Source: a virus | Lineage: Duplodnaviria; Caudoviricetes | Virus record (IMG/VR): IMGVR_UViG_3300042465_001918 | Location: 1-63,406 of that record | Length of the DNA: 63,406 nucleotides | Strand: one strand, 5' to 3' | Shown here: piece after piece, positions 18,523-63,406 of the stretch | Numbering within the stretch: the stretch's first letter is position 1 | How the letters are laid out: every line of letters begins with the position of its first letter | Program-made: the position numbers and the translations under genes | Notes under the pieces: model-generated | Told to the model about the DNA's origin: nothing | Seen by the model: the letters and a program-made list of their open reading frames with translations, nothing else | The model's database searches: none

Positions 18523-19674
18523 TTACAACATTGAGATGGCTAACTCAGACAAGCCGCCTGACTTCATCTTTTTGGTGGACATGATGCCGCCCTTTTTACC
18601 GCCAAACATTTTTGTCGCCGCCGCGCCGCCTGCTGGCCCCATCAAATACGCACCGGCCAAGGATGTTCCAAGACCCAACGCCTGCTGCCCAAAGGATGGC
18701 CCGGGTGTGTATGTGCTGGATGTTGTGCCATACGGCGTTCCACGCATGATGTTTGACATGAACTCAAGCTGCTCATACGGGTACTTCTTCCCCTTGAGGA
18801 ACTCTTCGTAGTCCGTTTGTAATTTTGATTGTTCTTTTGCTTCGCGCTGACCACCCGCTCTTTGTAAAGCGCCCAATGCATCAACTTCCTGAGCGAACTC
18901 GGCAGTGCCAAGCTCGCCAAGTCTGCCTGAAGCAGCCAAGGCGGCTTCAAGACCCTTCAAACCTAAGCCCTCACCAAACTGGCGCGAACTCTCACCAAAC
19001 TGTTTTGTGCTTTCAGCCAGAGCCTGCTCTTTGTTGAACTGATCAAGCCCCTTTGTGTAAGCTTCTTGCAGTCCGCGAGCCTGAATGTCGCCCTTTTGTG
19101 TGGCTAGATTACGAGCAGCTTCGGCGTCCATGATGGCTTGTCGGCTACCGCCAAAAGCACCTGATTTAACAGCTTCTGCACCGCGCTGAGTGCCTTGAAT
19201 GTCTGCCGCCCTCTGAGCTTCACGCTGCTGAATGTCAACCACGCTCTGCATGTACGGGTCCATGTACTGACCCGCCTGAGCACCAAACCCACCCGGCTGA
19301 TAGTCTGACTTGTACGGGTCATAACTCAAACCTAGCGCTCTTTTTGAGGCTTCGCCAGCAATACCGGCGGCTTCACCAAGATTTCCAGACGGCCTTAGAC
19401 TTTCAACGCCGGAGAAAAACTTGTTTTGTAGCGGGTCAAACTCAGCAATACGCTCACCGGTATAGGCTTGGTATGGGTTTTGTGTAGTGTCTGTGAGCGC
19501 TCTAGCTTTGCCAAGACCCTCCTTTGCCGCCTCTTCCATAAAAGGGGCAATTTCATTCTTGGTCGTAGATGTAGACCCGCCGCCGCCGTAGATGATGCGG
19601 CCAGCCTCTTTGCGGGTAACGCTGTCGCCGAGCGGCTCGCCAAATGCTTCAAGTTGTCTGCGTGAGAGGTTCAT
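18523..19674 (-). CDS. Putative DNA-ejection/pilot protein (P22 gp7 position)
   Basis: Leader then GGGGSTSTT; YMDPY, GAFGGSRQAI; C-terminal Gly-rich hydrophobic segment. Confidence 0.65.
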   Translation of the reverse strand: MNLSRRQLEAFGEPLGDSVTRKEAGRIIYGGGGSTSTTKNEIAPFMEEAAKEGLGKARALTDTTQNPYQAYTGERIAEFDPLQNKFFSGVESLRPSGNLGEAAGIAGEASKRALGLSYDPYKSDYQPGGFGAQAGQYMDPYMQSVVDIQQREAQRAADIQGTQRGAEAVKSGAFGGSRQAIMDAEAARNLATQKGDIQARGLQEAYTKGLDQFNKEQALAESTKQFGESSRQFGEGLGLKGLEAALAASGRLGELGTAEFAQEVDALGALQRAGGQREAKEQSKLQTDYEEFLKGKKYPYEQLEFMSNIMRGTPYGTTSSTYTPGPSFGQQALGLGTSLAGAYLMGPAGGAAATKMFGGKKGGIMSTKKMKSGGLSELAISML

Positions 19675-20075
19675 AATTTAACTCCTACAATCCTGTATTT
19701 CTCTTCAAAGCCGTATCTGGTCCAAAGACGGGCCACTGAATCTCTCGCAGCGCCTTCGATGCATGTGGCACCCATCGAGGCTGCGTAGGATTTTAACTGT
19801 TTAAACATATCATCGCTACTAATCAGTTTGCCGCCTATGGCAAGAATAAAACAGACCCTGTCATTGGGCCGGTTAAAAAACTGCACGATAGCCATGCCGT
19901 GGATTCCATCGTCGTCTGTCGCAACCAGTAAGCTCCATTGGCCCGTGGTAACCATGACCTTGGCCTGTTCGGCTGTGTACTCACCCTTTGAATGGGACAG
20001 CGCAGACTCAACAAAAGGCGCAACATGCGGCCATGTCTGATTAACCCATTCGTTGGGGACGTACTGAACGTTCAT
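19671..20075 (-). CDS. GNAT-fold virion assembly protein (P22 gp14 position)
   Basis: IEGAARDSVARLWTRYGFEE GNAT-like C-terminus; synteny. Confidence 0.6.
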   Translation of the reverse strand: MNVQYVPNEWVNQTWPHVAPFVESALSHSKGEYTAEQAKVMVTTGQWSLLVATDDDGIHGMAIVQFFNRPNDRVCFILAIGGKLISSDDMFKQLKSYAASMGATCIEGAARDSVARLWTRYGFEEKYRIVGVKL

Positions 20076-21097
20076 GCAGGAAGCAGTTTTTCTGCGCGGC
20101 TATTGACCGCTACACGGCCTTGCCCGATAGACTTCTTACGGGCATTCTGAACCCGCGCCAGCATTTGATAAAGCTTTCGAGCGCCAGCCTCGGTTGATCC
20201 ATTGCCCAACTCAGAAACAATCCTCGCAGGAACGACAAACTCGCCATCCGCAAGCCTAGCGGGTTGCTTGTTGGCAATCGTTGCTGGGATGGAGTCCGAG
20301 ACGCCATCGCCGGGGCCGCGCAAAAGTCTGCCGCCATCGGAGTAGTCTCCGAGATTGGCAATGCCGCCTTGGGCTAGGGCAGGTGTTCCTTCGCTTTGAC
20401 CACTGATGTCTCCGCCGCCAATGCCTTCACCGCCGCCAGTATCGCTGCCCTGTTCTGCTGGGTTGCCCACACCCGACTGGTAACTTGTTAAACCCATTGG
20501 ATTGTTCGAATACGTACCCCGGCTGTCTACAGGAACTCCGTAGTTGGGCTGGCTCGCCGGGGGGTCAAAAAAGTTTGCAATGCCGCCAACTATAGGACTT
20601 GATAAAGCACCGCTAAGTGCTTTAGCGGCCATCCCTCCGGGCACTACCATGCTTATAAAATCACTTACTTTTCCCATGCGGGCATCACGCGCACCGGGGA
20701 TGTTGGCCTCGTTGTCAAGGAAAGCAGCAGTACGTGGGTCTAGCGGTACATCTTGGCCTCCATCACTGCCACTGCCACTGCCATTTTTTGCAAAAGAATT
20801 ATTTATTGGATTATTGTCCGTCACTAGCGTATATTTTTGCGTTACCGGGTCATATGTGTACTTGGGCACATTAGAAGACGCCGCTGTAACACCGTCTATC
20901 TGAGTGTATTTGCCTGTGATGGGGTCATATGTGTATGTTGGAATGCCGCCAGCAGCCATTCTGGGAATATTAGAAATGCCGCCACTAGCAAAGCGCTGAC
21001 CGCCATTAGCCATCAGCGTTTCCATCATGTTGCGATCCGACATGTTCTGCACGGTGTTTAAACCACCTAGACCGGAAGATTGCATTGGATAGTTCAT
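20072..21097 (-). CDS. Putative internal virion protein with multiple hydrophobic-xxGG motifs
   Basis: MANGG, FASGG, MAAGG, LAQGG, YSDGG; GPGDGVSDSIPA...LADGEFVVPA. Confidence 0.7.
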   Translation of the reverse strand: MNYPMQSSGLGGLNTVQNMSDRNMMETLMANGGQRFASGGISNIPRMAAGGIPTYTYDPITGKYTQIDGVTAASSNVPKYTYDPVTQKYTLVTDNNPINNSFAKNGSGSGSDGGQDVPLDPRTAAFLDNEANIPGARDARMGKVSDFISMVVPGGMAAKALSGALSSPIVGGIANFFDPPASQPNYGVPVDSRGTYSNNPMGLTSYQSGVGNPAEQGSDTGGGEGIGGGDISGQSEGTPALAQGGIANLGDYSDGGRLLRGPGDGVSDSIPATIANKQPARLADGEFVVPARIVSELGNGSTEAGARKLYQMLARVQNARKKSIGQGRVAVNSRAEKLLPA

Positions 21098-23544: not shown

Positions 23545-24135
23545 TCACGCAGTTAGTACGTTAAGGGCGGAATTGATGTGCGCAACCCTGTCGGCAAGAC
23601 CTATTGTCCCACCGTTTATCTTTTTTGTCATCCCCGTGAAGTCCTTGGCATCGGCTTCTTTGTTTAAACTGCGCTTGTTCCAGTACCACGCTGCGGTCAG
23701 GGCTGCGTATTCTTTGGTCAGCACAAGGTCAGGGTCTTTGACGAAGTCCACGCCCAAGGCATCCGAAGCCAAGCGGTAGTTGTCTTTGCCGGTCAACTGA
23801 ATGAGGCCACGACCACGGAACTTCCAGCCATCGCCCTCATCGGTGTTGCCCATCCGGCCAGAGTAGACCTTGTTGGCGATCTTCTCGGGCTGGCGATGGA
23901 AAGGCTGTGCCGCGTCCTCTGACGGGAACCGGCTGGGCCATGTGGCGTTTAAACCCTTCGCACTGTAGTTCAGGTTCTCTTGCAGCGTCTTGAAGTTGGC
24001 AGACTCATGGGCACATTGCCCGATAAACGCAGCTTGGCGCTCCGGGGTGTTGATCTCAAAGCGGTTAAACGCCGCCGTCAGCGGCTCAAGCCATGACGGG
24101 TCGATGTGCATTTGCTCAAGTTGGTCTTCAGTCAT
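23545..24135 (-). CDS. Endolysin, glycoside hydrolase family 19
   Basis: FIGQCAHES, ENLNYS, GDGWKFRGRGLIQLTGKDNY, TKKINGG. Confidence 0.93.
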   Translation of the reverse strand: MTEDQLEQMHIDPSWLEPLTAAFNRFEINTPERQAAFIGQCAHESANFKTLQENLNYSAKGLNATWPSRFPSEDAAQPFHRQPEKIANKVYSGRMGNTDEGDGWKFRGRGLIQLTGKDNYRLASDALGVDFVKDPDLVLTKEYAALTAAWYWNKRSLNKEADAKDFTGMTKKINGGTIGLADRVAHINSALNVLTA

Positions 24136-31634: not shown

Positions 31635-32081
31635 TTAGCTTATTCTGACGATTGCGCTGGTGGCATCGGCGGTTGGGAAAATGATCTGAAACGTGTCGTT
31701 GGTGACCGTCTTGTCTGCACCAAAGTCCAACACCGCTACGGACTTGTTGCCCTCAGTGCTGTTGTAAATCAGAGCGCCACGCGCCGTAAACGATGCGCTT
31801 GCCCAAGATGAATTGGAGAAGCTAACAAACGCTGTGGGCACACTTGACTGATTGTTACCTGATGTAGGGCTGGTCGAGATGACAAGCGTGTTGCCGCCCG
31901 CCGTGTAGCCCGTGCCAACAACTTCTCCTGACGTTGTATATACAGTGGTTGTCGGGCCAATATTTGCCGCCGCTGTGTACAGCGCAACCTTAAAGGTGTC
32001 GGGGGATGCGGGGCCAAAGCTGTGAATTGCTTGAAGCAGTTCAACTTTAAAGCTCGTCGTTGCGGTTTGTGCGATGGTCAT
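31635..32081 (-). CDS. Putative tail structural protein
   Basis: SFKVELL, FKVALYT, GYTAGG, TARGALIYN, VLDFGADK. Confidence 0.7.
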   Translation of the reverse strand: MTIAQTATTSFKVELLQAIHSFGPASPDTFKVALYTAAANIGPTTTVYTTSGEVVGTGYTAGGNTLVISTSPTSGNNQSSVPTAFVSFSNSSWASASFTARGALIYNSTEGNKSVAVLDFGADKTVTNDTFQIIFPTADATSAIVRIS

Positions 32082-32734
32082 GTTACTGCCTGTCTATATT
32101 GGCCGGAACGATAAGCGTCTTGACGCTCCATACCGTCACCCAAACGTTTTGCGAGAGCGAGAGCTTCTTTGTACTTGCCATCGTACAAGGCCATCATGTC
32201 AGCCTCACCCTTCATGAAGGTATACGCTTCAACCAAGCTGCCATACAGCAGCACCGTGTCAAAGTTGTCACCCAGCCATGATGTACTCGCTGTTGCAATC
32301 GACTGTGGATAGTAATAGTAGTGAAGCTCTACGGAATACGTGGCATCTGGCGTAGGCCCAAGGATAAACGTAAGCTCGTTTGCGGAACTGCTTTGAGAAC
32401 CAAACAAGGCGTAGTACTTGGGGATGGCTGTATCAGTCGGCTGCGGGTATGCCTGACGAATGAAGTTTACGTCTTTGTTCAGCAAAAACTCATACGCGCC
32501 AAGCGCGTCAACCACTGCAATTGAGTACACGGCCAAGAAATCATCTGGACAAGCCAAGTACTTGTTGTTAGCCGTGACGCTGCCCGTCACATTCTTGCGA
32601 ATGGAGGGGAACTGAACCGTGTTGTAGATGCGCTGCTCCGCCTGCTCGACGAACACCGGAATGTTGTCAATGAAGTCTTGGTCGAAGTTCTGCGTGTAAT
32701 CGCAGATTGCAGCGGTCAACTCGGTGTAGTTCAC
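32078..32734 (-). CDS. Head-tail adaptor/tail tubular protein
   Basis: MNYTEL...FVEQAEQRI; GPTPDATYSVELHYY; LLYGSLVEAY. Confidence 0.7.
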   Translation of the reverse strand: MNYTELTAAICDYTQNFDQDFIDNIPVFVEQAEQRIYNTVQFPSIRKNVTGSVTANNKYLACPDDFLAVYSIAVVDALGAYEFLLNKDVNFIRQAYPQPTDTAIPKYYALFGSQSSSANELTFILGPTPDATYSVELHYYYYPQSIATASTSWLGDNFDTVLLYGSLVEAYTFMKGEADMMALYDGKYKEALALAKRLGDGMERQDAYRSGQYRQAVT

Positions 32735-32934
32735 GCCATTGGTCCCCGTGCCGTGATGCCTTTTGTGGCTGCGCCGTTACCACGGGTCACTATGCCTGTG
32801 GTTTTGGTGGGCTTGTAAGCGTTGCTGCGGTTGTTGCCAACAGACACGTTTAAATCCTTCATGTACTGATCGTTGTCACATGGAGGAATGACCGCCTTTG
32901 TTGGGGCTGGTCTGGTTTTATACGATATGGCCAT
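32731..32934 (-). CDS. Small basic protein with RGxGAATKG C-terminal motif
   Basis: Ends TRGNGAATKGITARGPMA; RBS AAGGAG. Confidence 0.7.
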   Translation of the reverse strand: MAISYKTRPAPTKAVIPPCDNDQYMKDLNVSVGNNRSNAYKPTKTTGIVTRGNGAATKGITARGPMA

Positions 32935-32944
32935 TTTTAACTCC

Positions 32945-33331
32945 TTAAGTGGTAACTGTAACTGTACCAATTTGCACGCCTAAAGCCAAGAGATTTGGCG
33001 TCAGCGCATCATCAAAAAACCTAGAGCCGCCCACTGGGTTCCATCCCCATTGGATGTTCCGGCTACCCCCGGTAGGGAACCCTGCCACGTTTAAACCTGC
33101 CACCACATACGTTGAGTCCCTGCGGGGGTTGCGTACCGCCTGCGGGTCATCAACCGGATACATGCCCAACTGAAGCTGTGGCTGATCAGGGTCAAAACAG
33201 GATGGACATACCAGCGTGTTGACCACCTTGGTTTTGACGATCTCTTTTCTCAGGTTGGTCAGTTTAAACTGAAAGCCACACCTGTCGCACATGGCAATGC
33301 TATTTTTGCCAGATGCATAACGATTGCCCAT
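32945..33331 (-). CDS. Conserved protein with CxxC pairs
   Basis: CDRCGF...VCPSCFDPDQPQL...DPQAVRNPR. Confidence 0.7.
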   Translation of the reverse strand: MGNRYASGKNSIAMCDRCGFQFKLTNLRKEIVKTKVVNTLVCPSCFDPDQPQLQLGMYPVDDPQAVRNPRRDSTYVVAGLNVAGFPTGGSRNIQWGWNPVGGSRFFDDALTPNLLALGVQIGTVTVTT

Positions 33332-34264
33332 TTAAGTTCCGCTCCCCAGATACTGACGGCGCGGGACAAACCGGATAGCTGCTTTTTCGCGGTCTTCATC
33401 CGAAGCGAGTTGCCACGCCTCATCGTATTGCTGTTTGAGCATGGGTAAACGCTCAAATCCCGCAGGGATCTTGCCAGCTATGTAATACGACAAGCCAGCC
33501 GCCATGCACGGAACGAACCGGAAGGGCACGTCCATGATGTTGACACCCCCACCAGCATCCTGTGTCCGGCGCAAGCGCCAGTAAGCCAGCGTATAGGTCT
33601 GTGAGCCATCCGGCGTGGGCCAGACGGTGACGGCTGGCAATTGCTCCCAGTACACCGCTGCACCAGTGGTATGGGCGGCTGCGGTGGTGTTGTTCTGAGC
33701 GCGGAAGCAGTTATTCAGGGTATTACCTGAGATGTAGCTGTAGTTGATGGTCTCGTTGTCAATTTTGACAAAGCCGGAGGCTGGTAGGCCCACAGTAGAA
33801 CTGAGGGTAATCGTTGTGGCTGTCGAAGTAATAGTACCGTTCAGCGTCAGACCAGTAGGCGAGCTTTGTGCGTTGTACCGTTGAATCCAGATCTGGATGG
33901 GCCGAGCCTGCTGAATTTTGTTTGGGATTGTGGCGTAGGTTGATACGCTGATCCGGGTGATCGTCAGGTCTGCCTGTGTAGACGTTGAATTGGCGCCAGT
34001 GCGGATGACGTGCTCGAGCAGGTCAATGGTGTCAGATGGCAGGGCGTAGGTGTTCTGGCCCTGCACGAAGGTAATGGTTCCCGGCTCAATCGACCACATG
34101 TTGATGCCGCGATTGGCCCAATCAGCAAACATGATGTTTAAACTGCGGCGGGCGGTACGTAGGTCATAGCCGGTACGCAGTTCGCCCCCGGCGCGTTCAA
34201 ACGCCTCCTCGACCAAATCGGTTAGGTCAAGGTTAAACGCGGAAGAGCCGGAAGTGTTTGCCAT
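33332..34264 (-). CDS. Head completion/tail tubular-A-like protein with inserted beta module
   Basis: EEAFERAG..RTGYDLRTARRSLN...WANRG; VWPTPD; DVPFRF. Confidence 0.7.
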   Translation of the reverse strand: MANTSGSSAFNLDLTDLVEEAFERAGGELRTGYDLRTARRSLNIMFADWANRGINMWSIEPGTITFVQGQNTYALPSDTIDLLEHVIRTGANSTSTQADLTITRISVSTYATIPNKIQQARPIQIWIQRYNAQSSPTGLTLNGTITSTATTITLSSTVGLPASGFVKIDNETINYSYISGNTLNNCFRAQNNTTAAAHTTGAAVYWEQLPAVTVWPTPDGSQTYTLAYWRLRRTQDAGGGVNIMDVPFRFVPCMAAGLSYYIAGKIPAGFERLPMLKQQYDEAWQLASDEDREKAAIRFVPRRQYLGSGT

Positions 34265-34497
34265 TATCTAAACCCTGCTGTTTTCTTTGCGATCTTCTTT
34301 GGTTGTGCTACGAACTGCTTCCCGGCGGCTTTTCCTGCTCGCTTGGCTTTGGTCGTTGCAGCGTACTCAGAAGGGCTGAGACTTTTAATCGCAGCGCTTG
34401 GAAGGTATCTTTCGCCTGTTTCAGAAGATTTTTTACCACTTTTCGTTCTCCATTTTTGGTCGCCCCAGTTTTTCAGGGACTGCTGTGGGGCTTTCAT
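34264..34497 (-). CDS. Small basic protein (DUF5872-like)
   Basis: QQSLKNWGDQKWRTKSGK...ERYLP...KQFVAQP. Confidence 0.7.
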   Translation of the reverse strand: MKAPQQSLKNWGDQKWRTKSGKKSSETGERYLPSAAIKSLSPSEYAATTKAKRAGKAAGKQFVAQPKKIAKKTAGFR

Positions 34498-34498
34498 A

Positions 34499-34738
34499 TC
34501 AGTCTTTGTAGCCGCCGCCAGCGGCTTTGTAGCGTTTAGCCATCAATTGGGCCTTACGGGCTGACCACTGACCTGCGCCCGTACCCTGTACTGCGGCAGC
34601 TTTGATGCTGTTAAAAATGCGCTTACGCAGCCCGGGCTTGGTGTAGTTGCCAGCAGCGTTGACCTTGCCACCCTTGGCCATCTTGGCTGCTTTCGGCAAT
34701 TTATTGGGGTTTACGGCCCCCATGCCACGGCTGGACAT
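34499..34738 (-). CDS. Small basic protein
   Basis: MSSRGMGA..MAKGG..NYTKPGLR..GQWSARKAQL..GGGY. Confidence 0.7.
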   Translation of the reverse strand: MSSRGMGAVNPNKLPKAAKMAKGGKVNAAGNYTKPGLRKRIFNSIKAAAVQGTGAGQWSARKAQLMAKRYKAAGGGYKD

Positions 34739-35229
34739 CAAAATTGAGTCTCCCAACGTTGCCCATTAACGATTTTATGGATTGTAGGCTGCCCCACTCC
34801 AAAAACACAGCTTATTTGAGACTGGCTAAATTTACCGCTGGCGTATAATTCTCGAATAAACAGAATTTGGCTGGCTACAAGTTTTGACATTCCATTTGCG
34901 GCTCCGAACTGTGGTTTCCCGCCAGACCTACCTTTAGCAACGCGGTCAGCAACATTGTCCGCATTAGTACCAATAAACAAATGCGCTGGATTCACACACT
35001 TGGGGTTATCGCACGAATGTAAGACATGCAAATTGGAGTCGAGCGAATCAAGCAACCCGTGCAAAACCGCCGAAACCCGGTGTGCTGTTCTACTTAGCCC
35101 TCTGTGTACATAGAACCACCCATAACCAATCGGCAGACAGTGGGCAGTCCACTCCCAGCAGCCGCCGACGCCCTGCTTATTGACCTTCGGCCAAAAGCGC
35201 ACATCAAGGGAAGCTGCCGTTTTACTCAT
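34738..35229 (-). CDS. HNH homing endonuclease with C-terminal HTH
   Basis: CWEWT..GYG..AHRVS..VLHSCDNPKCVNPAHL..GTNADN; overlaps both neighbours. Confidence 0.88.
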   Translation of the reverse strand: MSKTAASLDVRFWPKVNKQGVGGCWEWTAHCLPIGYGWFYVHRGLSRTAHRVSAVLHGLLDSLDSNLHVLHSCDNPKCVNPAHLFIGTNADNVADRVAKGRSGGKPQFGAANGMSKLVASQILFIRELYASGKFSQSQISCVFGVGQPTIHKIVNGQRWETQF

Positions 35230-35900
35230 ACCATCCTGCCTTTGGTCTTGCCACGCTGAGCAATACCATCACCGCGTTTAGATGTAGATGATACAGCGCC
35301 GCCCGAAGCCATTTTCTTGACTGGAGCCTTTGCTTTGACTGCGCCGCCTTTTTTCATAGCAGGTAGGAATTGTGAACCTAGGCTCATCCTTTCGCCAATT
35401 GGTGCTGCTCTGTCGCCGAGTAAACCGCGTAGTCCAGTCATACCCCCTCCTACACCGATTGGTGCTGGTGAAGTACCAACCGGCCCACCATCAGGCGTTG
35501 GCTCTGCAATACCTTTGTATTTTCTGTAAGCCGCGTCTTGCGCCCGCCCAACCGACCCAGAGCCTACGCTGCCAAAGTACGGAGAGTCGTACATATCCAT
35601 CGTAGCCGGTTTACCTGCCGAGTCTTTTTGAAACCCCTTGTACTCAGGCGAACTATAAAAAGCATCTTTTTTTCCCACCACCGGTTGGGGGGTTGGTGGT
35701 GCCAGTCTGGGTGCAATAACAGGTTTTGCCACCGGTCTGGGTGCAATAACAGGTTTTGCCACCGGTCTGGGTGCCATGACCGGTTTTGCTGCAACCGGTT
35801 TGGGTGCCATGACCGGTTTTGCTGCAACCGGTTTGGGTGCCATGACAGGTTTGCCCATCACAGGTTTAGGTGCGACCGGCTTAGGCTTAAAAATCGCCAT
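35226..35900 (-). CDS. Basic Pro/Lys-rich protein with C-terminal RGDGIAQRGKTKGRMV tag
   Basis: PV(M/I)AP(K/R)PVA(A)K repeats; MKKGG, MASGG. Confidence 0.75.
   Translation of the reverse strand: MAIFKPKPVAPKPVMGKPVMAPKPVAAKPVMAPKPVAAKPVMAPRPVAKPVIAPRPVAKPVIAPRLAPPTPQPVVGKKDAFYSSPEYKGFQKDSAGKPATMDMYDSPYFGSVGSGSVGRAQDAAYRKYKGIAEPTPDGGPVGTSPAPIGVGGGMTGLRGLLGDRAAPIGERMSLGSQFLPAMKKGGAVKAKAPVKKMASGGAVSSTSKRGDGIAQRGKTKGRMV
35705..35890. repeat. Coding tandem repeats (30-bp and 33-bp units)
   Basis: ggttttgccaccggtctgggtgc... and ggttttgctgcaaccggtttgggtgccatgac units in tandem. Confidence 0.85.
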
Positions 35901-35901
35901 A

Positions 35902-36189
35902 TCAAACCATCCTTCCACGAGTTTTGCCGCGCTGAGCAATGCCGTCGCCACGACGTGCGGTGACCTTGCCGCCCTTTTTCATCTGGACGGGGGTTGCTGT
36001 TGCGGGATTCTGTTCCATCTGTGCGGCGTCTGCTGCCCCTGCGTTGACCTGAACTAAGGGCGAGTTGTTGCCCAGACCAACAGAAGGCGTCGGCGCCGCA
36101 GGAGCCGACATCTGCCCTTGCCCAAACGGGTAGTTGGAATTTGCAACTACGCCGCCGTCGTCAAACCGTTTTGCTCTTTTTGTAGCCAT
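35902..36189 (-). CDS. Small protein with C-terminal RGDGIAQRGKTRGRMV tag
   Basis: RFDDGG...MKKGG..RRGDGIAQRGKTRGRMV. Confidence 0.75.
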   Translation of the reverse strand: MATKRAKRFDDGGVVANSNYPFGQGQMSAPAAPTPSVGLGNNSPLVQVNAGAADAAQMEQNPATATPVQMKKGGKVTARRGDGIAQRGKTRGRMV

Positions 36190-36191
36190 GA

Positions 36192-36446
36192 TTACACCAT
36201 CCGGCCTTTTGTGTGGCCCTTGGTGATGCAGCCATCAGCACGAGTGACACCACCGGACTTAAAGCGTTTGCCCATCTCCGTGCGAGTGGTTGGCGCTTTC
36301 TCCGCCGCCTTCTTGGCTTTTTCATCAGCCATCGTCTGCTTCATAGCATCTGTAGGTGGGGCGTCAGTGCCGCCAGAACGGGCTTCTTCTCTGGCTTTCT
36401 TCGCCAGAGTTTCTGCGTCAATTGCTGCTTGCTTTGCATCAGACAT
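36192..36446 (-). CDS. Small protein with C-terminal RADGCITKGHTKGRMV tag
   Basis: FKSGG then tag variant. Confidence 0.75.
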   Translation of the reverse strand: MSDAKQAAIDAETLAKKAREEARSGGTDAPPTDAMKQTMADEKAKKAAEKAPTTRTEMGKRFKSGGVTRADGCITKGHTKGRMV

Positions 36447-36448
36447 AA

Positions 36449-37444
36449 TTAGTAGATCTTTCCGCGAGTTTTGCCACGCAATGCGATACCATCACCACGC
36501 TTAGAGGCTGTAGAGCTTTTGACAGATCCGCCATGGGCCATCTTTTTGACTGTGCCGCCTCTTTTCTTGGATTGTTTTGCTGCCGACGAAGCTAAACCTT
36601 GAAATTCATCGAGCAGATTGGCATCAATGCCTTCTTCGGCTTGTTTTTTAAGAATGGCTCGCTTCTGGGCACCCACCCGAGACGCTTCTTTAGCGGCTTG
36701 TCCCGCTTTATACATCTTTCTGCCCTTATAAAGAGCGCCAGTAAGTAAACCCAATCCCGCAGCGCCAGCACCTAAAGTGCCAGCCTCTAAGCCCTTTTGA
36801 GTGTTTTCCGCTGAAGGCGGTTTAAAAGCTTGGTCAATGCCAGCTTGCCGCTCTTCTTTGGTGGTTGCAGTCGGTTTAGCAGCAGCAGGCGCCGCAGCCG
36901 GAGTTTTAGCTCTTGCATCTACCGCTGCTCTCCTAGAATACTTTCTAAGATCATCCGTAGCATTAGCTGAACTAGATGCAGCAGCAGGTCTGGAGGCGGC
37001 AGGCTTTACCTTGCCAGCAAGAATTGCCGCATTCTGAGCTTGAGCCACTGGAGATGGAGCCATTCTTTTTTCATCGCGCATGCCTTCTGCGCGGCCACGA
37101 GCCATCATTTCTGACATCCGAGCGGTCTCGCCTGCTTCAGCGTCTAGCTGTTCAGGCGCATAGCTGCTTTTTGCAGGACGGGCGGCATTCATTTCATCAA
37201 CCATGCGGTTGGCAGCAAGCTCACTCGCTGCGTCACGATCCATCTTTGCACGGCCAGCCCCAAGGCGGTTGTATGCCTGTGAGCCTTCTTGATCGATGTT
37301 GCCCATACGAAGACGCTCAAAGAAACCCATGGGAGCATCCTTGTTCGAGGCGGCAAGGCCAGCCATCTTGTCGGCAGTTTCTCCGCCCTCTTGAAAGCGA
37401 CGAACGCGCTTAACGGGTTTTTTCATTGGTTTCTTTGTAGCCAT
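36449..37444 (-). CDS. Ala/Lys-rich protein with C-terminal RGDGIALRGKTRGKIY tag
   Basis: RFQEGG near N-terminus; MAHGG before tag; RBS GGAG. Confidence 0.75.
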   Translation of the reverse strand: MATKKPMKKPVKRVRRFQEGGETADKMAGLAASNKDAPMGFFERLRMGNIDQEGSQAYNRLGAGRAKMDRDAASELAANRMVDEMNAARPAKSSYAPEQLDAEAGETARMSEMMARGRAEGMRDEKRMAPSPVAQAQNAAILAGKVKPAASRPAAASSSANATDDLRKYSRRAAVDARAKTPAAAPAAAKPTATTKEERQAGIDQAFKPPSAENTQKGLEAGTLGAGAAGLGLLTGALYKGRKMYKAGQAAKEASRVGAQKRAILKKQAEEGIDANLLDEFQGLASSAAKQSKKRGGTVKKMAHGGSVKSSTASKRGDGIALRGKTRGKIY

Positions 37445-37457
37445 CTTGTACTCCAAG

Positions 37458-37958
37458 TTAAATGATCTTGCCTTTGGTCTTGCCGCGAGACTCAATGCCG
37501 CCGCCTATGGAGTAACCCATGCCGGTAACCTTTTTGTTCACGGGGCCACCTTTTTTCATCTTGCCTTCGCCATCTGCGGCAAACGCTGGAATCTTTTTGC
37601 CGTCTTTCATGACCATGGGCATGCCGCCCTCTTTGAGGCCAGCGTGAGCTTTAGAGGCGGGTTTGGCTGCGTGTTTGGCAAGAGCAGCAGGCATGCCACC
37701 CTTTTTCATGCCCATTTCAGCCCTCTCGTGCTTGATCATGGACTTGGGGGCACCAGCTTTTTTCATGAAGCCGATTTCTTTCTTCACCATTGCCTTGGAT
37801 TCTTTCATGTCGCCACCTTTTGAAAATTTGCGGCCCTTGTCCGCTGTTGAAAAGTCTTTACCCACGGACTGTGGAACGCCTACTTTCTTGGCGAATGCTG
37901 GGTTATTTGCCACAGCCGCCATGAAATTATGTTGTTTCTTGCTTGTGCTTGGCATCAT
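37458..37958 (-). CDS. Basic protein with five hydrophobic-xxGG motifs and GIESRGKTKGKII tag
   Basis: MPSTSKKQHNFMAAVANNP; FSKGG, MKKGG x2, LKEGG, YSIGG. Confidence 0.75.
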   Translation of the reverse strand: MMPSTSKKQHNFMAAVANNPAFAKKVGVPQSVGKDFSTADKGRKFSKGGDMKESKAMVKKEIGFMKKAGAPKSMIKHERAEMGMKKGGMPAALAKHAAKPASKAHAGLKEGGMPMVMKDGKKIPAFAADGEGKMKKGGPVNKKVTGMGYSIGGGIESRGKTKGKII

Positions 37959-38194
37959 TTCCCCGCCTGAATAAGCTGGTCAATCTTGGCCTCAAGGCGG
38001 TTGAACCGCTGGTCAATGTGCTCAGTTATTCGCTGAACTTCTGCTTTAGTTGTGTAATCACGGGCAATTTCCTCTCGTGTTATGTTCAAAAGCCGCTCAA
38101 GACGCTTTATGTCTTCGAACTTCTCTCGCACAAAGAACCACAGTGCGCCCATAAACACCGATAGAGCGCCCGACCATATGATGTTGATGTCCAT
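37955..38194 (-). CDS. Small membrane plus coiled-coil protein
   Basis: N-terminal TM; LLNITREEIARDY...RFNRLEAKID. Confidence 0.7.
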   Translation of the reverse strand: MDINIIWSGALSVFMGALWFFVREKFEDIKRLERLLNITREEIARDYTTKAEVQRITEHIDQRFNRLEAKIDQLIQAGK

Positions 38195-38195
38195 C

Positions 38196-38546
38196 TCAGC
38201 ACATCTTTCCACGGGTTTTGCCGCGCTGGGCTATGCCGTCTGCACGTTTAGAAGCCGAGACTGCGCCACCTTTGGAAAAAGGCTTTCCGCCGTATTCTGG
38301 ATCATACTGATAATCCCGGTCGCCTCTATCGATGGATTTTTGCTCTGCTTCAATATCCCGGGCAAGTTTATCGCTGTAGTCTTTTCTACCTTTGGAGCCA
38401 GAATACTTTGGGCCGCCAAAAAAAGGAACGAAATTCATGACATCGCCAGCATAGCCAGCCGCCTTAGAACCCAAACTCTCGTTGCTTTCTTTTCGATTTT
38501 GCAAGTCTTTAAGGCGTTGCTTGTCCGTAGTATTTTTGGCGGCCAT
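38196..38546 (-). CDS. Small protein with C-terminal RADGIAQRGKTRGKMC tag
   Basis: FSKGG then tag; RBS GAGG. Confidence 0.75.
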   Translation of the reverse strand: MAAKNTTDKQRLKDLQNRKESNESLGSKAAGYAGDVMNFVPFFGGPKYSGSKGRKDYSDKLARDIEAEQKSIDRGDRDYQYDPEYGGKPFSKGGAVSASKRADGIAQRGKTRGKMC

Positions 38547-38553
38547 GTTTACC

Positions 38554-38811
38554 TCAGCACTTCCATCTCTTCAGAGCAGCCGCCTTGCGGGTGGGCTGGC
38601 CTTTTTCATCTTTGAGCGGCCCGGGCATCCCTGACATCCGTGCGCAGAACGAATCCTTGCGCTTGCCGCCCTGCGGCTGGGGAGCCTTCAGGTTGCTGCC
38701 CGTAGCAGCGTTGTACTTAGCACGGCCTTTGGCAGTCAGACCCGCTCCCTTGGAGATCGGGAGCTTTTCGCCACGACCAACCGAGAGAACCGGGCCTTTC
38801 TTTTTAGCCAT
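38554..38811 (-). CDS. Small basic protein (DUF6321-like)
   Basis: GLTAKGR..YN...GSNLKAP...RKDSFCARM...LKRWKC. Confidence 0.7.
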   Translation of the reverse strand: MAKKKGPVLSVGRGEKLPISKGAGLTAKGRAKYNAATGSNLKAPQPQGGKRKDSFCARMSGMPGPLKDEKGQPTRKAAALKRWKC

Positions 38812-39319
38812 AATAAATCTGCGCTGCGTCAATGGCGTCCATATAGGCGTAAATCCCATTTACTGCCAATACACCTTCGCCGGGAACAAGAGGGGCATTC
38901 TGGAACTCGTCTGATGAGTGAGTTTCATAAGTTAACAGCCAACGATTTACACCACTGACATAAATCGCTGCTGGGGTGCCTGTAATATTCCCAGTATTGA
39001 TGTCTTTGATCGTAAACGCATCTGCGGTTGTTACAGTAATGGGGTAATTTCCATCAGTAGCAGAGCCGCCCGAACCGCCGTCAAAGTGAATGCCAACTAC
39101 AGTACCAGTTGTCAACCCATGCGCAGTTTTACCAATCGTCACGGTTGTGCCGCTACGACCATAAGTTACGCTTGAGGTTACTGGGGCTACGGTTGTGTCA
39201 AACAAAACCAAAGTTCCGGAAGCGCCGTAAAAAGAAACGCCTTTTACACGGTTACGCCCAAGAACAAAAAAACCGCTTTGGTTTAAATGACCTTGTCTTA
39301 CGTCATACTGCATCGTCAT
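38804..39319 (-). CDS. Putative virion structural protein
   Basis: Beta-rich; AHGLTTG..V module; PGEGVL..NGIY...IYYG end. Confidence 0.65.
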   Translation of the reverse strand: MTMQYDVRQGHLNQSGFFVLGRNRVKGVSFYGASGTLVLFDTTVAPVTSSVTYGRSGTTVTIGKTAHGLTTGTVVGIHFDGGSGGSATDGNYPITVTTADAFTIKDINTGNITGTPAAIYVSGVNRWLLTYETHSSDEFQNAPLVPGEGVLAVNGIYAYMDAIDAAQIYYG

Positions 39320-39482
39320 GTTGTTGCTCCAGTTCTGGTGATGGGCGATCTAATTCGGTCAACAAAACATCCACCATTGCAATTGCTCCGTTAGCCTGTT
39401 GGATGAGGTCCAGATACTTTTGCCGTTGCTCAAGTGCCTGACCCCTTAACCCCAACAGGTAGTCCTTATCTAACTCGGCCAT
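39303..39482 (-). CDS. Small coiled-coil protein (59 aa, not in track)
   Basis: MAELDKDYLLGLRGQALEQRQKYLDLIQQANGAIAMVDVLL...; TAATG coupling. Confidence 0.6.
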   Translation of the reverse strand: MAELDKDYLLGLRGQALEQRQKYLDLIQQANGAIAMVDVLLTELDRPSPELEQQHDDAV

Positions 39483-40054
39483 TAGGCGTTGAAGTTAGCG
39501 GCAGTAGCTGCCAGCAGGTAATAGTCACTGCCAGCAATCTTCACGCGAAGACCGTGCGTAATCTCGTTGACGTTGGTAATCGTGCCAGTAGCAGCCAATT
39601 TGGCACCGGCAACAGTTACACCAGCCAGATTTAGCAGGTAGCCGTTGGTATCGACAGTAGCAGCGCCAGCGCCATTAAGCGAAGCGTAAATCATCGAAGT
39701 GGCTGCGCCAGTAGAAGCGCCAGAGCCAGCGTTCAACTCGATTTCAACAGGAGCGTAGGTTCCAGAAGATGTACCGGCAGACAGGGTCAACTCAGCAACA
39801 AAGGCTGAACCCAGACCAGTTGTGCGACCAGTAGCGCCGTAGGTGACTTCGGCTTTTAGGGCGTTAGAGAACGAACCCAGAGCAACGTTAGCGCTCATCT
39901 GGAACAATGTGCGTCCGCCCGTGCCGCCAACACCCGTCATCGTGACGGCAGTGGTGCTCGCATTAAAAGCTGCGGCACCAGTGGAAGAATTGGAAATTGT
40001 GGTAATGAAGCCGTTTTGCGAAGCAACTGGGCCGGAGAAGGTGGTTAATGCCAT
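39482..40054 (-). CDS. Putative capsid decoration/fibre protein
   Basis: MALTTFSGPVASQNGF start; directly after major capsid gene. Confidence 0.65.
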   Translation of the reverse strand: MALTTFSGPVASQNGFITTISNSSTGAAAFNASTTAVTMTGVGGTGGRTLFQMSANVALGSFSNALKAEVTYGATGRTTGLGSAFVAELTLSAGTSSGTYAPVEIELNAGSGASTGAATSMIYASLNGAGAATVDTNGYLLNLAGVTVAGAKLAATGTITNVNEITHGLRVKIAGSDYYLLAATAANFNA

Positions 40055-40208: not shown

Positions 40209-41138
40209 TTACGCGCCGGGTGATCCGAAGATGCCCAGTGGGTCAGAGAAGCCGAAGCTGTAACGCTCACGGGCTTTGTAACGGACGTTGCCGGTGTCGA
40301 AGTCACCATCCATGGATGTTGTCATCGCAGCACGCTCGAAGTGCTTCAAACCGTTAGGAACGTCTGTGGTCAAGAACCAAGCATTCGGATCGGTCAGATA
40401 GTGGTTAACGGTGTAACCAGCAGAGATGGTGCCCATTGACTTCAACGCATTGATGTCGTTGTCAGCGGTAGCAACACGCAGTTCGGTGTCCAGCAAACGC
40501 TTTGCCACGAACATCAAATTTGGTGGGATCACCAGTTTGACGGGCTTGGAAGCGATCAACAGACCACGCTCATCCACCCAAGCAGCGATCTGAATGGTTG
40601 CGGCTTCCAAAGAAGTCTCATTCAAATCAGCAGGTGTGGATGGGGTGTTGTTGTTTACACCACCGCTAACCAGCGGGTGACCGACCAGTTGGGCAGAACT
40701 GTTGTAGCCGAACAGAGACACGCCGTCACCACCGAGGGCGGTACCGGAGAAGCCTGTATTCAGAACAGCAGCAGCTTTGACCTGTTTGGTGTAAGCCATA
40801 CCGCGAGCCAGAGCTTTGGTGTAGCGGGCAGACAAACTGTCGTACAGGTTGTCTTCCACTGCTTCTTCAGTGATGGAGAAGCCCAGAGCGATGGTCTCGT
40901 GGGTGTAGCGTGCAGTAAAGGCTTCCTGCGCGTTGTCAAAAGCGATGGACGAACCCTCGTTTTTAACAGGTGCAGCGCCGAAACCGGACAGCTTGGTCTC
41001 TTCCTCAAATGAACGCTCAGAAGATTCTGTTTCGTACAGTTCTTTGTGCTCTTCGCCGTAGCGAGCATATTCCAGACCAAACAGTGCGTTCAGACCGGGG
41101 AGCAGTTCTTTAAGTAGTTGTGCGCGTGAAATAGCCAT
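40209..41138 (-). CDS. Major capsid protein
   Basis: MAISRAQLLKELLPGLNALFGLEY; DLNETSLE; GDFDTGNVRYKARERYSFG; followed by terminator. Confidence 0.9.
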   Translation of the reverse strand: MAISRAQLLKELLPGLNALFGLEYARYGEEHKELYETESSERSFEEETKLSGFGAAPVKNEGSSIAFDNAQEAFTARYTHETIALGFSITEEAVEDNLYDSLSARYTKALARGMAYTKQVKAAAVLNTGFSGTALGGDGVSLFGYNSSAQLVGHPLVSGGVNNNTPSTPADLNETSLEAATIQIAAWVDERGLLIASKPVKLVIPPNLMFVAKRLLDTELRVATADNDINALKSMGTISAGYTVNHYLTDPNAWFLTTDVPNGLKHFERAAMTTSMDGDFDTGNVRYKARERYSFGFSDPLGIFGSPGA

Positions 41139-43171: not shown

Positions 43172-43597
43172 TTAAGCGCGGGTGTAACCCCGAGGGTCTT
43201 GCACAACACATTCAATTTGGTCGTCGTTCAGTACCCTGAACTCTTTACCAAACACTCGAAAGCGCGTCCCTGTATAGGTACGCACGAGCACAAAGTCACC
43301 CTCTTTACACCATGGACCCGAAGGGAACTTGGCGGTGTCTTTGTACGCATCTGGCCCGAGCTTCATGACCCAAAGCACGGTTGTGGCGCTCTCTTCAAGG
43401 CGCATAGTCGCGGCATCTCGGATAAGGTCAAGAGATGTCCCGGCGAGCTTCTCGTCTACGGCAGGAACGATACACAGCATCTTGTAGCCCGTCGGTATAG
43501 GCAAGGCGGACCCTTTATCGCCGTCCTCGTCGGGTTTATCTAGGGGCTGGATGTGTTTGGGTAAGGTAATACCCGGTGGCAGAAGGATTTCACTCAT
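43172..43597 (-). CDS. groES: Co-chaperonin GroES-like
   Basis: PTGYKML...LGPDAY...PWCKEGDFV..RTYTG...RVLNDDQI. Confidence 0.8.
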   Translation of the reverse strand: MSEILLPPGITLPKHIQPLDKPDEDGDKGSALPIPTGYKMLCIVPAVDEKLAGTSLDLIRDAATMRLEESATTVLWVMKLGPDAYKDTAKFPSGPWCKEGDFVLVRTYTGTRFRVFGKEFRVLNDDQIECVVQDPRGYTRA

Positions 43598-43784
43598 CTG
43601 ATTGTTCAGCTTTCTTTGCAAGGTCAAGAAGATGGCGCTCTGCGATAGCCAGACCCTGAATGGTTCCGCAGAGTTTTTGATATTCTTCAAATGAGCGACA
43701 TGCTCCGCTGGCGGCATCATCCGCATAGTTATTCATGTCGATGCGTATTTGTTCGCGCAATACACGAGCGAATTCTTGAATCAT
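43590..43784 (-). CDS. Conserved small protein after portal
   Basis: SFEEYQKLCGTIQGL motif. Confidence 0.65.
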   Translation of the reverse strand: MIQEFARVLREQIRIDMNNYADDAASGACRSFEEYQKLCGTIQGLAIAERHLLDLAKKAEQSDE

Positions 43785-59537: not shown

Positions 59538-59556
59538 AAAAACCTTTGGAGAAAAG

Positions 59557-61651: not shown

Positions 61652-61661
61652 GGAGAGCGAT

Positions 61662-62358: not shown

Positions 62359-62367
62359 GGATGCACC

Positions 62368-63210: not shown

Positions 63211-63406
63211 CGCTATGTGGAGATATTTATGGACAGAGTTGAGGCTGATGCTAAAAACTGTAACTCCGGCACAGGCTGTCACGCATGAGCTGATGCACGC
63301 CGAGCATGAATTGTTGAAAGCTGAATCGGGGGTCGAGTACGCACAGGCGCTGGTGACTTACAACAAGCAACGAGTCAAGCGCTTGAAGGCGTACTTGGGC
63401 AAGACT

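What the first reader, a model, noticed from the sequence alone, without database searches (positions are those of the whole stretch)
32731..38811. Array of unrelated small basic proteins sharing a C-terminal tag: candidate capsid cargo-loading system
Seen: six genes end in nearly the same peptide: KRGDGIAQRGKTKGRMV (35226), RRGDGIAQRGKTRGRMV (35902), TRADGCITKGHTKGRMV (36192), KRGDGIALRGKTRGKIY (36449), GGGIESRGKTKGKII (37458) and KRADGIAQRGKTRGKMC (38196). Looser variants occur at 32731 (RGNGAATKGITARGPMA) and at the N-terminus of 34499 (SRGMGA). Codons differ synonymously, so the conservation is at protein level. In the six tagged genes a hydrophobic-x-x-GG motif precedes the tag (MASGG, MKKGG, FKSGG, MAHGG, FSKGG), and two also have one after a basic N-terminal leader (RFDDGG, RFQEGG), bracketing unrelated, low-complexity middles. 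The array lies between head and head-tail genes. Known analogy: T4 internal proteins carry a cleavable capsid-targeting sequence. Inference: a modular leader-GG-cargo-GG-tag system for packaging and releasing variable peptides (DNA-condensing or anti-defence) in the virion.
Basis: partly seen in the sequence, partly recalled or inferred. Interest (0 to 1): 0.85.

Follow-up and report, generated by a model that had tools for sequence, protein, structure and literature searches.

The report
Shared end-tag on small basic phage proteins
An abundant group of uncultured freshwater phages attaches the same short, undescribed peptide to the ends of many unrelated small, positively charged, floppy proteins; it is probably a docking peptide that places them inside the virus head, but this is untested.

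Summary
Six minus-strand genes between the major capsid gene and the head-tail adaptor genes end in the same peptide (R-A/G-D-G-I/C-A-x-R/K-G-K-T-K/R-G-x-M/I-x-stop). Their remaining sequences are unrelated, and the shared residues often use different codons.

- **What the tag is.** It is a repeatable unit of about 30 residues: basic, hydrophobic-x-x-GG, short spacer, then the core. It matches no Pfam, PHROG, NCBIfam or PDB entry.
- **How common.** It hits 8305 protein clusters. In every sample I could place, it sits in one phage clade related to the HTVC023P type, in the same gene interval, at 0 to 6 copies per genome.
- **What it is attached to.** The "cargo" is disordered, basic and domain-free. 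Some predicted proteins are little more than tags. No protease was found.

Release by cutting at GG has no support.

My best reading (about 0.4): the tag is a short docking motif that anchors polycationic internal head proteins. The hydrophobic-x-x-GG sub-motif recurs in the phage's putative ejection proteins.

Earlier scan notes describe analogous but different terminal tags in other phages. None has this peptide.

The parts
38196..38546 (-). Tagged protein, 116 aa, pI 9.6; ends ...F-S-K-G-G-...-K-R-A-D-G-I-A-Q-R-G-K-T-R-G-K-M-C
   Evidence: (E 1.2e-19). The Atlas model has pLDDT 0.60.
37458..37958 (-). Tagged protein, 166 aa, pI 10.3. It has a conserved N-terminal three-helix module of about 45 aa (phrog_16759), five hydrophobic-x-x-GG motifs, and the G-G-G-I-E-S-R-G-K-T-K-G-K-I-I tail. 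This is the most widespread family of the array (66 loci).
   Evidence: AF2 gives pLDDT 81-96 for residues 1-40 and 47-56 for the tag region.
36449..37495 (-). Tagged protein. The ORF is 348 aa; the likely start is the ATG at 37444 (331 aa). It has a basic leader ending R-F-Q-E-G-G, an Ala/charge-rich middle, then M-A-H-G-G and the tag.
   Evidence: (orthologue starts)
36192..36446 (-). Tagged protein, 84 aa, charged middle; tag variant R-A-D-G-C-I-T-K-G-H-T-K-G-R-M-V
35902..36189 (-). Tagged protein, 95 aa, pI 11.0; leader M-A-T-K-R-A-K-R-F-D-D-G-G. It has 127 homologues. The conserved blocks are the leader, two short middle motifs and the tag.
35226..35951 (-). Tagged protein. The ORF is 241 aa; the likely start is the ATG at 35900 (224 aa). 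It has a proline-rich K-P-V repeat, two hydrophobic-x-x-GG motifs, then the tag.
32731..32970 (-). Small basic protein (79-aa ORF) carrying a second class of the tag (...R-G-N-G-A-A-T-K-G-I-T-A-R-G-P-M-A). It lies between the two adaptor-like genes.
   Evidence: The tail is conserved in 69 homologues.
34499..34756 (-). Small basic protein (85-aa ORF) with an N-terminal S-R-G-M-G-A motif, one hydrophobic-x-x-GG motif and a phrog_17747 C-terminal module
   Evidence: DSL-LC04 has similar N-termini.
34264..34497 (-). Small basic protein, 77 aa (phrog_14910). A related module forms the N-terminus of the 928-aa family phrog_3477.
38554..38859 (-). Small basic protein, 101 aa, DUF6321. This module is the C-terminal end of larger phage protein families.
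   Evidence: (E 7.7e-23)
37955..38212 (-). Transmembrane plus coiled-coil protein, 85 aa, lying inside the array but untagged. Its homologue in Roseobacter phage CRP-902 lies among lysis genes.
34738..35229 (-). HNH homing-endonuclease gene inserted in the array. It is present in 1 of 61 comparable loci (this window only).
40209..41138 (-). Major capsid protein (Phage_capsid_4 / Mu gpT-like); upstream boundary of the interval; pI 4.9
33332..34264 (-). Adaptor-like protein (SU10_adaptor); downstream boundary of the interval
32078..32734 (-). Adaptor protein (SU10_adaptor, E 3.9e-25)
18523..19674 (-). Putative DNA-ejection protein (phrog_4287). Its C-terminal tail carries K-K-G-G and K-K-M-K-S-G-G, the same sub-motif as the tagged proteins.
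   Evidence: Of 24 close homologues, 22 keep the motif.
20072..21097 (-). 341-aa virion-module protein with three hydrophobic-x-x-GG motifs in its first 55 residues

Best explanation
**What the genes encode.** The six genes, with the two looser relatives at 32731 and 34499, encode strongly basic late proteins. They appear largely disordered and are assembled from a few short linear motifs.

**The shared unit.** It reads basic, hydrophobic-x-x-G-G, 2-9 residues, then R-A-D-G-(I/C)-A-x-(R/K)-G-K-T-(K/R)-G-x-(M/I)-x. It sits at the extreme C-terminus, alone or in 2-3 tandem copies. The unit has no fold of its own.

**Inferred mechanism (not shown).**
- The unit is a docking peptide for a partner encoded by this phage clade. 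The most likely partner is the acidic inner face of the capsid shell, or another component inside the procapsid.
- Docking would trap these polycations in the head before DNA is packaged.
- There they would sit on the DNA as counter-ions or spacers, and they may leave with it at infection.
- The tag would then be the working part, rather than a label on a separate cargo. The variable middles would act as linkers carrying further short motifs.

**Status of each step.**
- Shown: the motif, its modularity, its selection and its restriction to one clade.
- Inferred: docking, location in the head, and any role on DNA.
- No cleavage is assumed.
For: **Specific conservation.** Non-basic positions are invariant or nearly so across 116 tails: both G of GG, R, D, G, G, K, T and G. 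The T95 family scores highest in the tag columns.

**C-terminal position.**
- In 141 of the 150 best database hits, the last unit ends within 1 residue of the C-terminus. In the other 9 it ends within 2-20 residues.
- Of 313 tagged ORFs in relatives, 225 end within 3 residues, 79 within 4-20 and 9 further away.

**No own fold.** AF2 gives the 46-residue tail pLDDT 58 and pTM 0.14. The tag region of the 166-aa protein has pLDDT 47-56.

**Restriction to one clade.**
- All 77 new loci found through the tag have homologues of this window's head-module proteins.
- The same holds for 80 of 80 loci from an exact DNA-pattern scan.
- In 61 loci that span capsid to adaptor, only 4 tagged ORFs lie outside that interval.
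- Tags are absent from the more distant relatives CRP-902, the Alcaligenes phage and Caulobacter GB2A.

**Link to internal proteins.** The hydrophobic-x-x-GG sub-motif also marks the C-tail of the putative ejection protein and the N-terminus of its 341-aa neighbour. It is kept in 22 of 24 close homologues of the ejection protein.

**Link to virion proteins elsewhere.** The N-module of the 166-aa protein matches the N-termini of two PHROG families annotated as virion structural protein.

**Charge.** The array proteins have pI 9.6-11.2. The capsid, portal, scaffold-like and neighbouring head proteins have pI 4.1-5.6.

**Weak within-genome signal.** Tags in one genome are slightly more alike than tags from different genomes (77.3% against 72.9%; 1 of 2000 permutations reached this).
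Against: - No result shows that any of these proteins is in a virion or binds any partner.
- In HTVC023P the capsid-to-adaptor interval also holds an M15 peptidase and a membrane coiled-coil protein. In CRP-902 the homologue of the window's membrane coiled-coil gene lies beside lysis genes. Position alone therefore does not make a gene structural.
- Three of 61 relatives have no tag at the HMM threshold, so the proteins look dispensable for assembly.
- The within-genome similarity excess could come from recent duplication rather than a shared partner.
- The 'virion structural protein' labels are database annotations and I did not check them.
- The ejection-protein name rests on one PHROG match (E 3e-16).
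Confidence: 0.4

Rival explanations
1. Under it the tag loads proteins into the capsid. A protease then cuts at the hydrophobic-x-x-GG sites, removing the leader and the tag and releasing the variable middle peptides as DNA-condensing or anti-defence cargo.
For: - Hydrophobic-x-x-GG is about three times enriched in tagged proteins outside the tag.
- It brackets the middle in two window genes and follows a basic leader in 52 of 313 relatives.
- Cutting after Gly-Gly is known for proteases that process basic core proteins of adenovirus and some large DNA viruses.
Against: - No protease family matched any window protein scanned in Pfam, PHROGs or NCBIfam.
- GG is part of the conserved unit and recurs between tandem cores and after the last core, which suits a binding motif better than a cut site.
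- As I recall the adenovirus consensus, the hydrophobic residue lies one position closer to GG than it does here.
- The middles carry no domains.
- Tag-only mini-proteins would leave nothing to release.
Confidence: 0.1
2. The unit binds nucleic acid directly. Under this reading the Gly-rich G-x4-G-K-T-K-G core forms an anion-binding loop on the DNA or RNA backbone, and no protein partner is involved. The proteins would be phage polycations that coat or condense DNA in the infected cell or in the head.
For: - The whole proteins are very basic, not only the tags.
- The core fits the G-x4-G-K-T pattern, with G, G, K and T invariant or nearly so.
- Units occur in tandem, as expected for multivalent backbone binding.
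Against: - DNA cannot carry bound proteins through the portal, so entry to the head would still need a loading step. This follows from the established procapsid packaging pathway.
- A generic DNA binder would not need an invariant Asp and a fixed C-terminal position.
- It would also be less likely to stay confined to one phage clade.
- Only 5 residues follow the T and no fold is predicted, so this is not a P-loop NTPase domain.
- In some copies K is replaced by H.
Confidence: 0.2
3. The tag staples disordered 'hair' proteins onto the outside of the capsid, so the proteins are external decoration.
For: - The genes follow the capsid gene and cement-like genes (39482-40054; the equivalent gene in DSL-LC04 is annotated as cement protein).
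- Copy number and content vary as for accessory decoration proteins.
Against: - Known decoration proteins are folded. These proteins are predicted disordered and highly cationic throughout.
- The shared sub-motif is with putative internal ejection proteins, not with fibres or cement proteins.
Confidence: 0.07
4. The proteins are not virion components. They are cationic late proteins that act on the host envelope at lysis, or on some other host target.
For: - A membrane coiled-coil gene sits inside the array, and its homologue lies in the lysis region of CRP-902.
- HTVC023P has an M15 peptidase in the same interval.
- I recall that small cationic phage lysis peptides have been described.
Against: - The tagged proteins have no amphipathic or membrane segments and are Gly/Ala/Pro-rich.
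- The window's lysozyme gene lies elsewhere (23545-24135).
- Six parallel copies with unrelated middles are hard to explain by a lysis role.
Confidence: 0.07

Closest known systems
Capsid-targeting sequence (CTS) of phage T4 internal proteins
   Same: A short terminal peptide shared by otherwise different small, dispensable, basic head proteins. In T4 the CTS is enough to take GFP into the scaffolding core (passages of PMC9958956).
   Different: - The T4 CTS is N-terminal, about 10 aa long, and belongs to a system with the gp21 prohead protease.
- Here the tag is C-terminal, about 17-30 aa, repeatable in tandem and unrelated in sequence.
- No protease gene was found.
- The phage is a podovirus-like relative of the HTVC023P type, not T4-like.
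C-terminal targeting (cargo-loading) peptides of Family 1 encapsulins
   Same: Short C-terminal peptides on proteins encoded next to an HK97-fold shell gene, which bind the inside of the shell (passages of PMC8346489). This is the closest analogy in position and logic.
   Different: - Encapsulin cargos are folded enzymes, with a motif such as T-V-G-S-L.
- Here the partners are domain-free disordered polycations and the motif is different.
- The shell is a DNA-filled phage capsid.
- Binding was not tested.
Polyvalent proteins and other packaged or injected phage proteins (Iyer et al. 2017)
   Same: - The same genome encodes a 2918-aa polyvalent protein (LPD38, ART-PolyVal). That class is proposed to be packed in the head and injected (passages of PMC5512222).
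- Several small modules of the array are terminal modules of large phage proteins elsewhere: DUF6321, and the modules matching phrog_14910 and phrog_16759.
   Different: The tagged proteins are small, have no enzymatic domains and are separate genes. The tag itself is absent from Pfam and PHROGs.
Walker A (P-loop) motif
   Same: The core fits G-x4-G-K-T.
   Different: There is no flanking strand or helix. Only 5 residues follow the T, the region is predicted disordered, and K is sometimes H. The resemblance is in pattern only.

Membership tests
T4-type capsid-targeting sequence | N-terminal peptide of about 10 residues | tested here: not met
   The tag is C-terminal: in 141 of 150 database hits the last unit ends within 1 residue of the C-terminus. 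The definition comes from passages of PMC9958956.
T4-type capsid-targeting sequence | Works within a scaffold core that a prohead protease digests | tested here: not met
   No protease family was found in Pfam, PHROGs or NCBIfam scans of the head-module proteins and the other window proteins scanned. A novel protease cannot be excluded.
T4-type capsid-targeting sequence | Sufficient to carry a protein into the procapsid | not testable with these tools
Encapsulin Family 1 cargo-loading peptide | Short conserved C-terminal peptide on genes next to an HK97-fold shell gene | tested here: met
   The tags are C-terminal. The genes lie 1.7-5 kb downstream of a Phage_capsid_4 gene.
Encapsulin Family 1 cargo-loading peptide | Family motif (for example T-V-G-S-L) and a folded enzyme cargo | tested here: not met
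   The sequence is different. None of 148 tag-bearing proteins has a credible Pfam domain. The motif is as quoted in PMC8346489.
Encapsulin Family 1 cargo-loading peptide | Peptide binds the inner face of the shell protein | not testable with these tools
No solved relative of the capsid protein or of the tag exists.
P-loop NTPase (Walker A) | G-x4-G-K-[ST] pattern | tested here: met
   G, G, K and T are invariant or nearly so in 116 tails.
P-loop NTPase (Walker A) | Loop embedded between a beta-strand and a helix of an alpha/beta domain | tested here: not met
   Five residues follow the T. AF2 gives pLDDT 58 and pTM 0.14 with no strand. There is no Pfam match.
Gly-Gly-processed basic core proteins (adenovirus-type protease substrates) | A cognate cysteine protease gene and a hydrophobic-x-G-G cut site (consensus recalled, not from a call) | tested here: not met
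   No protease was found. Here two residues, not one, separate the hydrophobic residue from GG.
DUF6321 (PF19846) | Match above Pfam's gathering score | tested here: met
   38554-38859 scores 81.4 bits against a cut-off of 28.5. This applies to that untagged neighbour only, not to the six tagged genes.

The most novel reading that the evidence does not exclude
The unit is a natural, portable encapsidation peptide for an HK97-fold phage capsid, the phage counterpart of the encapsulin cargo-loading peptide.

Under this reading it docks one to three times per chain into the acidic inner wall of the procapsid. A fast-changing set of disordered polycations would then line the shell, neutralise and organise the packaged DNA, and leave with it together with the ejection proteins, which share the hydrophobic-x-x-GG half of the motif.

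Such a system would be widespread in one of the most abundant freshwater phage clades, and the peptide could be used as a loading tag.
Probability: 0.2. Interest if true: 0.85.

Novelty: new variant of a known kind. Interest (0 to 1): 0.6.

Why it matters
**If the tag is a head-loading peptide.** It would be a second, independent solution to the problem that T4 solves with its capsid-targeting sequence. It would also be the first C-terminal, repeatable one linked to disordered polycations in a small podovirus-like phage.

**Scale.** The capsid gene of this clade has more than 8000 clusters at 90% identity. The tag marks 8305 clusters at 50% identity. All of them are currently 'hypothetical proteins' with no family in Pfam, PHROGs or NCBIfam.

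**What it offers.**
- A testable route to learning what small basic phage proteins do inside heads.
- A candidate natural tag for loading proteins into phage capsids.

**If it is not a loading tag.** A 17-residue motif conserved this strictly on unrelated proteins still points to an unknown, specific binding partner.

Tried and rejected
- **tblastn of the tag against cultured phages.** The 32-aa tag and a two-unit protein gave no match, although Pag-Yong1 does carry a tag. The query is short and low in complexity, so this result says nothing.
- **Complex prediction** (capsid protein alignment A3 plus tag alignment A2) was not available, so no binding test was made.
- **The search for related loci with the tag alignment on genome contigs** failed for lack of a conserved stretch. 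A degenerate DNA pattern then gave 4 hits.
  - Three are true tags on contigs of 13-63 kb binned into freshwater MAGs (Nanopelagicales, Cyanobium, Bacteroidota).
  - The Polaromonas hit is a chance match inside a spurious 450-aa frame, and that genome has no terminase homologue. The prophage and host lead was dropped.
- **Mimicry of a head protein's tail.** The tag HMM finds nothing in the scaffold-like, capsid, portal or polyvalent proteins, and their termini look different.
- **Protease search.** Nothing was found.
- **P-loop NTPase reading.** Rejected.
- **Other look-ups that gave no useful lead.**
  - PDB sequence searches with the tag, the 166-aa protein, the DUF6321 protein and the capsid protein gave no relatives.
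  - The ESM Atlas returned only unnamed viral clusters.
  - BFVD found the N-module of the 166-aa protein in uncharacterised proteins of jumbo Pseudomonas and Serratia phages.
- **Literature.** Eight searches listed no paper on this peptide.
  - I judged the listings from titles and abstract starts only, and read passages of three papers.
  - The papers on Pag-Yong1 and its duplicate records were not found in the library.
  - Supplements were not opened.
- **Earlier scan notes.** A look-up by sequence found nothing.

Full report
**What the window is**

- The record is an IMG/VR virus record of 63,406 bases, rated 100% complete.
- Its first 4098 bases recur at the end with 3 mismatches, so the unique length is 59,308 bp.
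- The late genes lie on the minus strand:
  - large terminase, 46136-47626
  - portal, 43781-46126
  - a GroES-like gene
  - a charged, coiled scaffold-like 315-aa protein
  - the major capsid protein, 40209-41138 (Phage_capsid_4)
  - the array under study
  - two SU10-type adaptor genes, 33332-34264 and 32078-32734
  - fibres and a lysozyme
  - a putative ejection protein
  - a 2918-aa polyvalent protein (LPD38, ART-PolyVal)
- By capsid protein, the nearest cultured relatives are:
  - Planktothrix phage Pag-Yong1 and two records of identical length, 72%
  - DSL-LC04, 66%
  - Pelagibacter phage HTVC023P, 63%
  - Roseobacter phages CRP-901 and CRP-902, 53-54%
- Nothing in the phage collection matches at DNA level.
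- The clade is very abundant in metagenomes. All 8000 scored candidates were capsid homologues, and the 120 listed were 85-97% identical.

**The observation**

- A six-frame regex finds no further copy except the loose one at 32731. An HMM of the six tails finds exactly six places in the record.
- Conservation is at protein level: 59 of 121 identical residue pairs in the last 13 positions use different codons.
- With the tags removed, the six proteins have no significant similarity to each other. The best BLASTP E-value is 0.024, between two N-terminal leaders.
- The genes are packed stop-to-start. The ATGs at 35900 and 37444 are the likely true starts of two of them.

**Anatomy of the tag**

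- In 116 tails from the window and its relatives, these positions are invariant or at least 90% conserved: the two G of hydrophobic-x-x-GG, and the R, D, G, G, K, T and G of the core.
- The unit is a repeat. Of the 150 best database proteins, 121 have one unit, 28 have two and 1 has three. In 141 of them the last unit ends within one residue of the C-terminus.
- Variants in relatives:
  - a further K-M-A-x-G-G-K-x-C after the core, typical of the 166-aa family
  - His-rich forms
  - an N-terminal form on 62-64-aa proteins
- Two looser classes are themselves conserved. One is the C-tail of the 79-aa ORF at 32731, kept in 69 homologues. It aligns to the main core with one indel. The other is the N-terminal S-R-G-M-G of the 85-aa ORF at 34499.
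- Diverged forms occur in more distant relatives:
  - HTVC023P gp51 ends in a G-G-G-A-A-V-R-G-M-G-F-K-G-V-F-like tail.
  - DSL-LC04 has R-G-M-G N-termini and hydrophobic-x-x-GG repeats.
- AF2 gives the tail no fold of its own: pLDDT 58 and pTM 0.14. In the 166-aa protein only the N-terminal 40 residues are confident (pLDDT 81-96), and the tag region scores 47-56.

**Distribution**

- The profile of the six tails hits 8305 representative proteins at E ≤ 0.001 and 315 at E ≤ 1e-10.
- The tag matches nothing in Pfam, PHROGs, NCBIfam or PDB sequences.
- Every sample I could place belongs to one phage clade:
  - All 77 new loci found through the tag carry homologues of the window's adaptor or capsid genes.
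  - In an exact DNA-pattern scan, 80 of 80 fetched loci carry a non-tag head-module homologue within 2 kb.
- In 61 loci that span capsid to adaptor, the number of tagged genes is 0 (3 loci), 1 (9), 2 (22), 3 (15), 4 (10) or 6 (2). The window is at the maximum, and only 4 tagged ORFs lie outside the interval.
- Pag-Yong1 has one tagged gene.
- CRP-902, Alcaligenes phage QDWS535 and Caulobacter phage GB2A have none in the regions read.

**What the tag is attached to**

- The upstream parts of 303 tagged ORFs fall into 154 BLAST families. This clustering used low-complexity filtering and is conservative.
  - One family, that of the 166-aa protein, is present in 66 loci.
  - Most of the others are rare.
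- The 95-aa protein has 127 homologues. Its leader, two short middle motifs and the tag are conserved, and the rest varies.
- No credible Pfam domain occurs in 148 top tag-bearing proteins or in the 14 longer ones, 170-238 aa.
- The window's array proteins have pI 9.6-11.2 and few hydrophobic residues. The capsid, portal, scaffold-like and neighbouring head proteins have pI 4.1-5.6.
- Some predicted proteins of 46-49 aa consist of little else than one or two units. I did not check that they are complete genes.
- The array therefore does not look like enzymes with an address label. It looks like multivalent strings of short motifs on flexible basic linkers.

**A link to internal proteins**

- Hydrophobic-x-x-GG is enriched in tagged proteins outside the tag: 7.2 per 1000 aa against 2.3.
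- Among the large virion proteins, the motif clusters in basic context at a terminus in only two; scattered single matches occur in several others:
  - the C-tail of the putative ejection protein, 18523-19674
  - the N-terminus of the 341-aa protein, 20072-21097
- Of 24 close homologues of the ejection protein, 22 keep the motif in the last 50 residues, often as Y-A-K-G-G-x-V-S, the form seen before tag cores. Of 43 distant homologues, 9 do.
- The N-module of the 166-aa protein matches the N-termini of two PHROG families annotated as virion structural protein.
- DUF6321 and the phrog_14910-like module are terminal modules of large phage proteins elsewhere.
- These are indirect pointers to the inside of the head, not proof.

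**Mechanism**

- My best reading (confidence about 0.4) is a docking motif that traps polycationic, disordered proteins in the procapsid, where they later lie on the DNA.
- It rests on five points:
  - the specific, non-basic conservation
  - the fixed C-terminal position
  - the restriction to one clade
  - the acidic head proteins
  - the sub-motif shared with putative ejection proteins
- A slight excess of tag similarity within genomes fits a genome-encoded partner, but it also fits recent duplication (77.3% against 72.9%; 1 of 2000 permutations).
- Against it:
  - Nothing shows virion location or binding.
  - The same interval in relatives holds lysis genes.
  - Three relatives lack tags.
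  - No protease was found.
  - GG belongs to the repeated unit.
  - Tag-only proteins exist.
- Direct DNA binding by the G-x4-G-K-T loop is a live rival (0.2). External decoration and lysis roles are less likely.

**Comparison with what is known**

- In logic, the closest systems are the T4 capsid-targeting sequence (passages of PMC9958956) and the C-terminal targeting peptides of Family 1 encapsulins (passages of PMC8346489).
- The tag is not a member of either. It is C-terminal and repeatable, unlike T4's. It differs in sequence from the encapsulin peptides and sits on domain-free polycations rather than enzymes.
- Eight literature searches listed no paper on this peptide. I judged the listings from titles and abstract starts. 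The library lacks many journals and the Pag-Yong1 papers.
- Earlier notes of this scan report analogous terminal tags in other phages, but none with this sequence.

**Verdict**

- The tag is an undescribed, very widespread short linear motif of one abundant freshwater phage clade.
- Its role as a head-loading or docking peptide is plausible but unproven. The cargo-release model is unsupported.
- The decisive binding prediction could not be run.

Noticed in passing
window 1-4098 and 59309-63406: The first 4098 bases are repeated at the end with 3 mismatches, so the unique genome is 59,308 bp. The collection classes the record as linear with no end repeats. The distant relative Caulobacter phage GB2A has annotated identical terminal repeats. 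This may be a true long terminal repeat or an assembly wrap-around of a population.
   Followed up: partly
window 8196-16952 (-): A 2918-aa polyvalent protein with LPD38 and ART-PolyVal domains, a class proposed to be packaged and injected. Most of its length has no family match.
   Followed up: partly
window 34738-35229 (-): An HNH homing-endonuclease gene is inserted between two array genes and overlaps the stop of the upstream tagged gene. It is found in only this one of 61 comparable loci.
   Followed up: yes
window 37955-38212 (-): A transmembrane plus coiled-coil protein lies inside the array. It is conserved in DSL-LC04. In CRP-902 its homologue lies next to lysis genes, so it may be a lysis or membrane factor.
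   Followed up: partly
window 43172-43726 (-): A GroES-like C-terminal domain is encoded in a 184-aa gene between the portal and scaffold-like genes. It is conserved in all relatives read and annotated there as co-chaperonin GroES.
   Followed up: no
window 50975-52483 and 53404-54060 (+): A MoxR-type AAA ATPase and a VWA-domain protein are encoded close together in the early region.
   Followed up: no
window 37461-37958 (-), residues 1-45: The confident three-helix N-module of the 166-aa protein also occurs as small uncharacterised proteins in jumbo Pseudomonas phages (Phabio, 201phi2-1, EL) and a Serratia phage. It also forms the N-terminus of large PHROG 'virion structural protein' families.
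   Followed up: partly
GenBank OL906435.1, OQ594354.1, PP438419.1: Three phage records deposited under different host names (Planktothrix, Synechococcus, Planktothricoides) have the same length (65,014 bp) and gave identical capsid matches. They may be one genome.
   Followed up: no
L167 (Polaromonas MAG scaffold): An exact match to the tag DNA pattern lies inside a spurious 450-aa frame of high-GC bacterial DNA, and that genome has no phage terminase. This shows that pattern hits need their context checked.
   Followed up: yes
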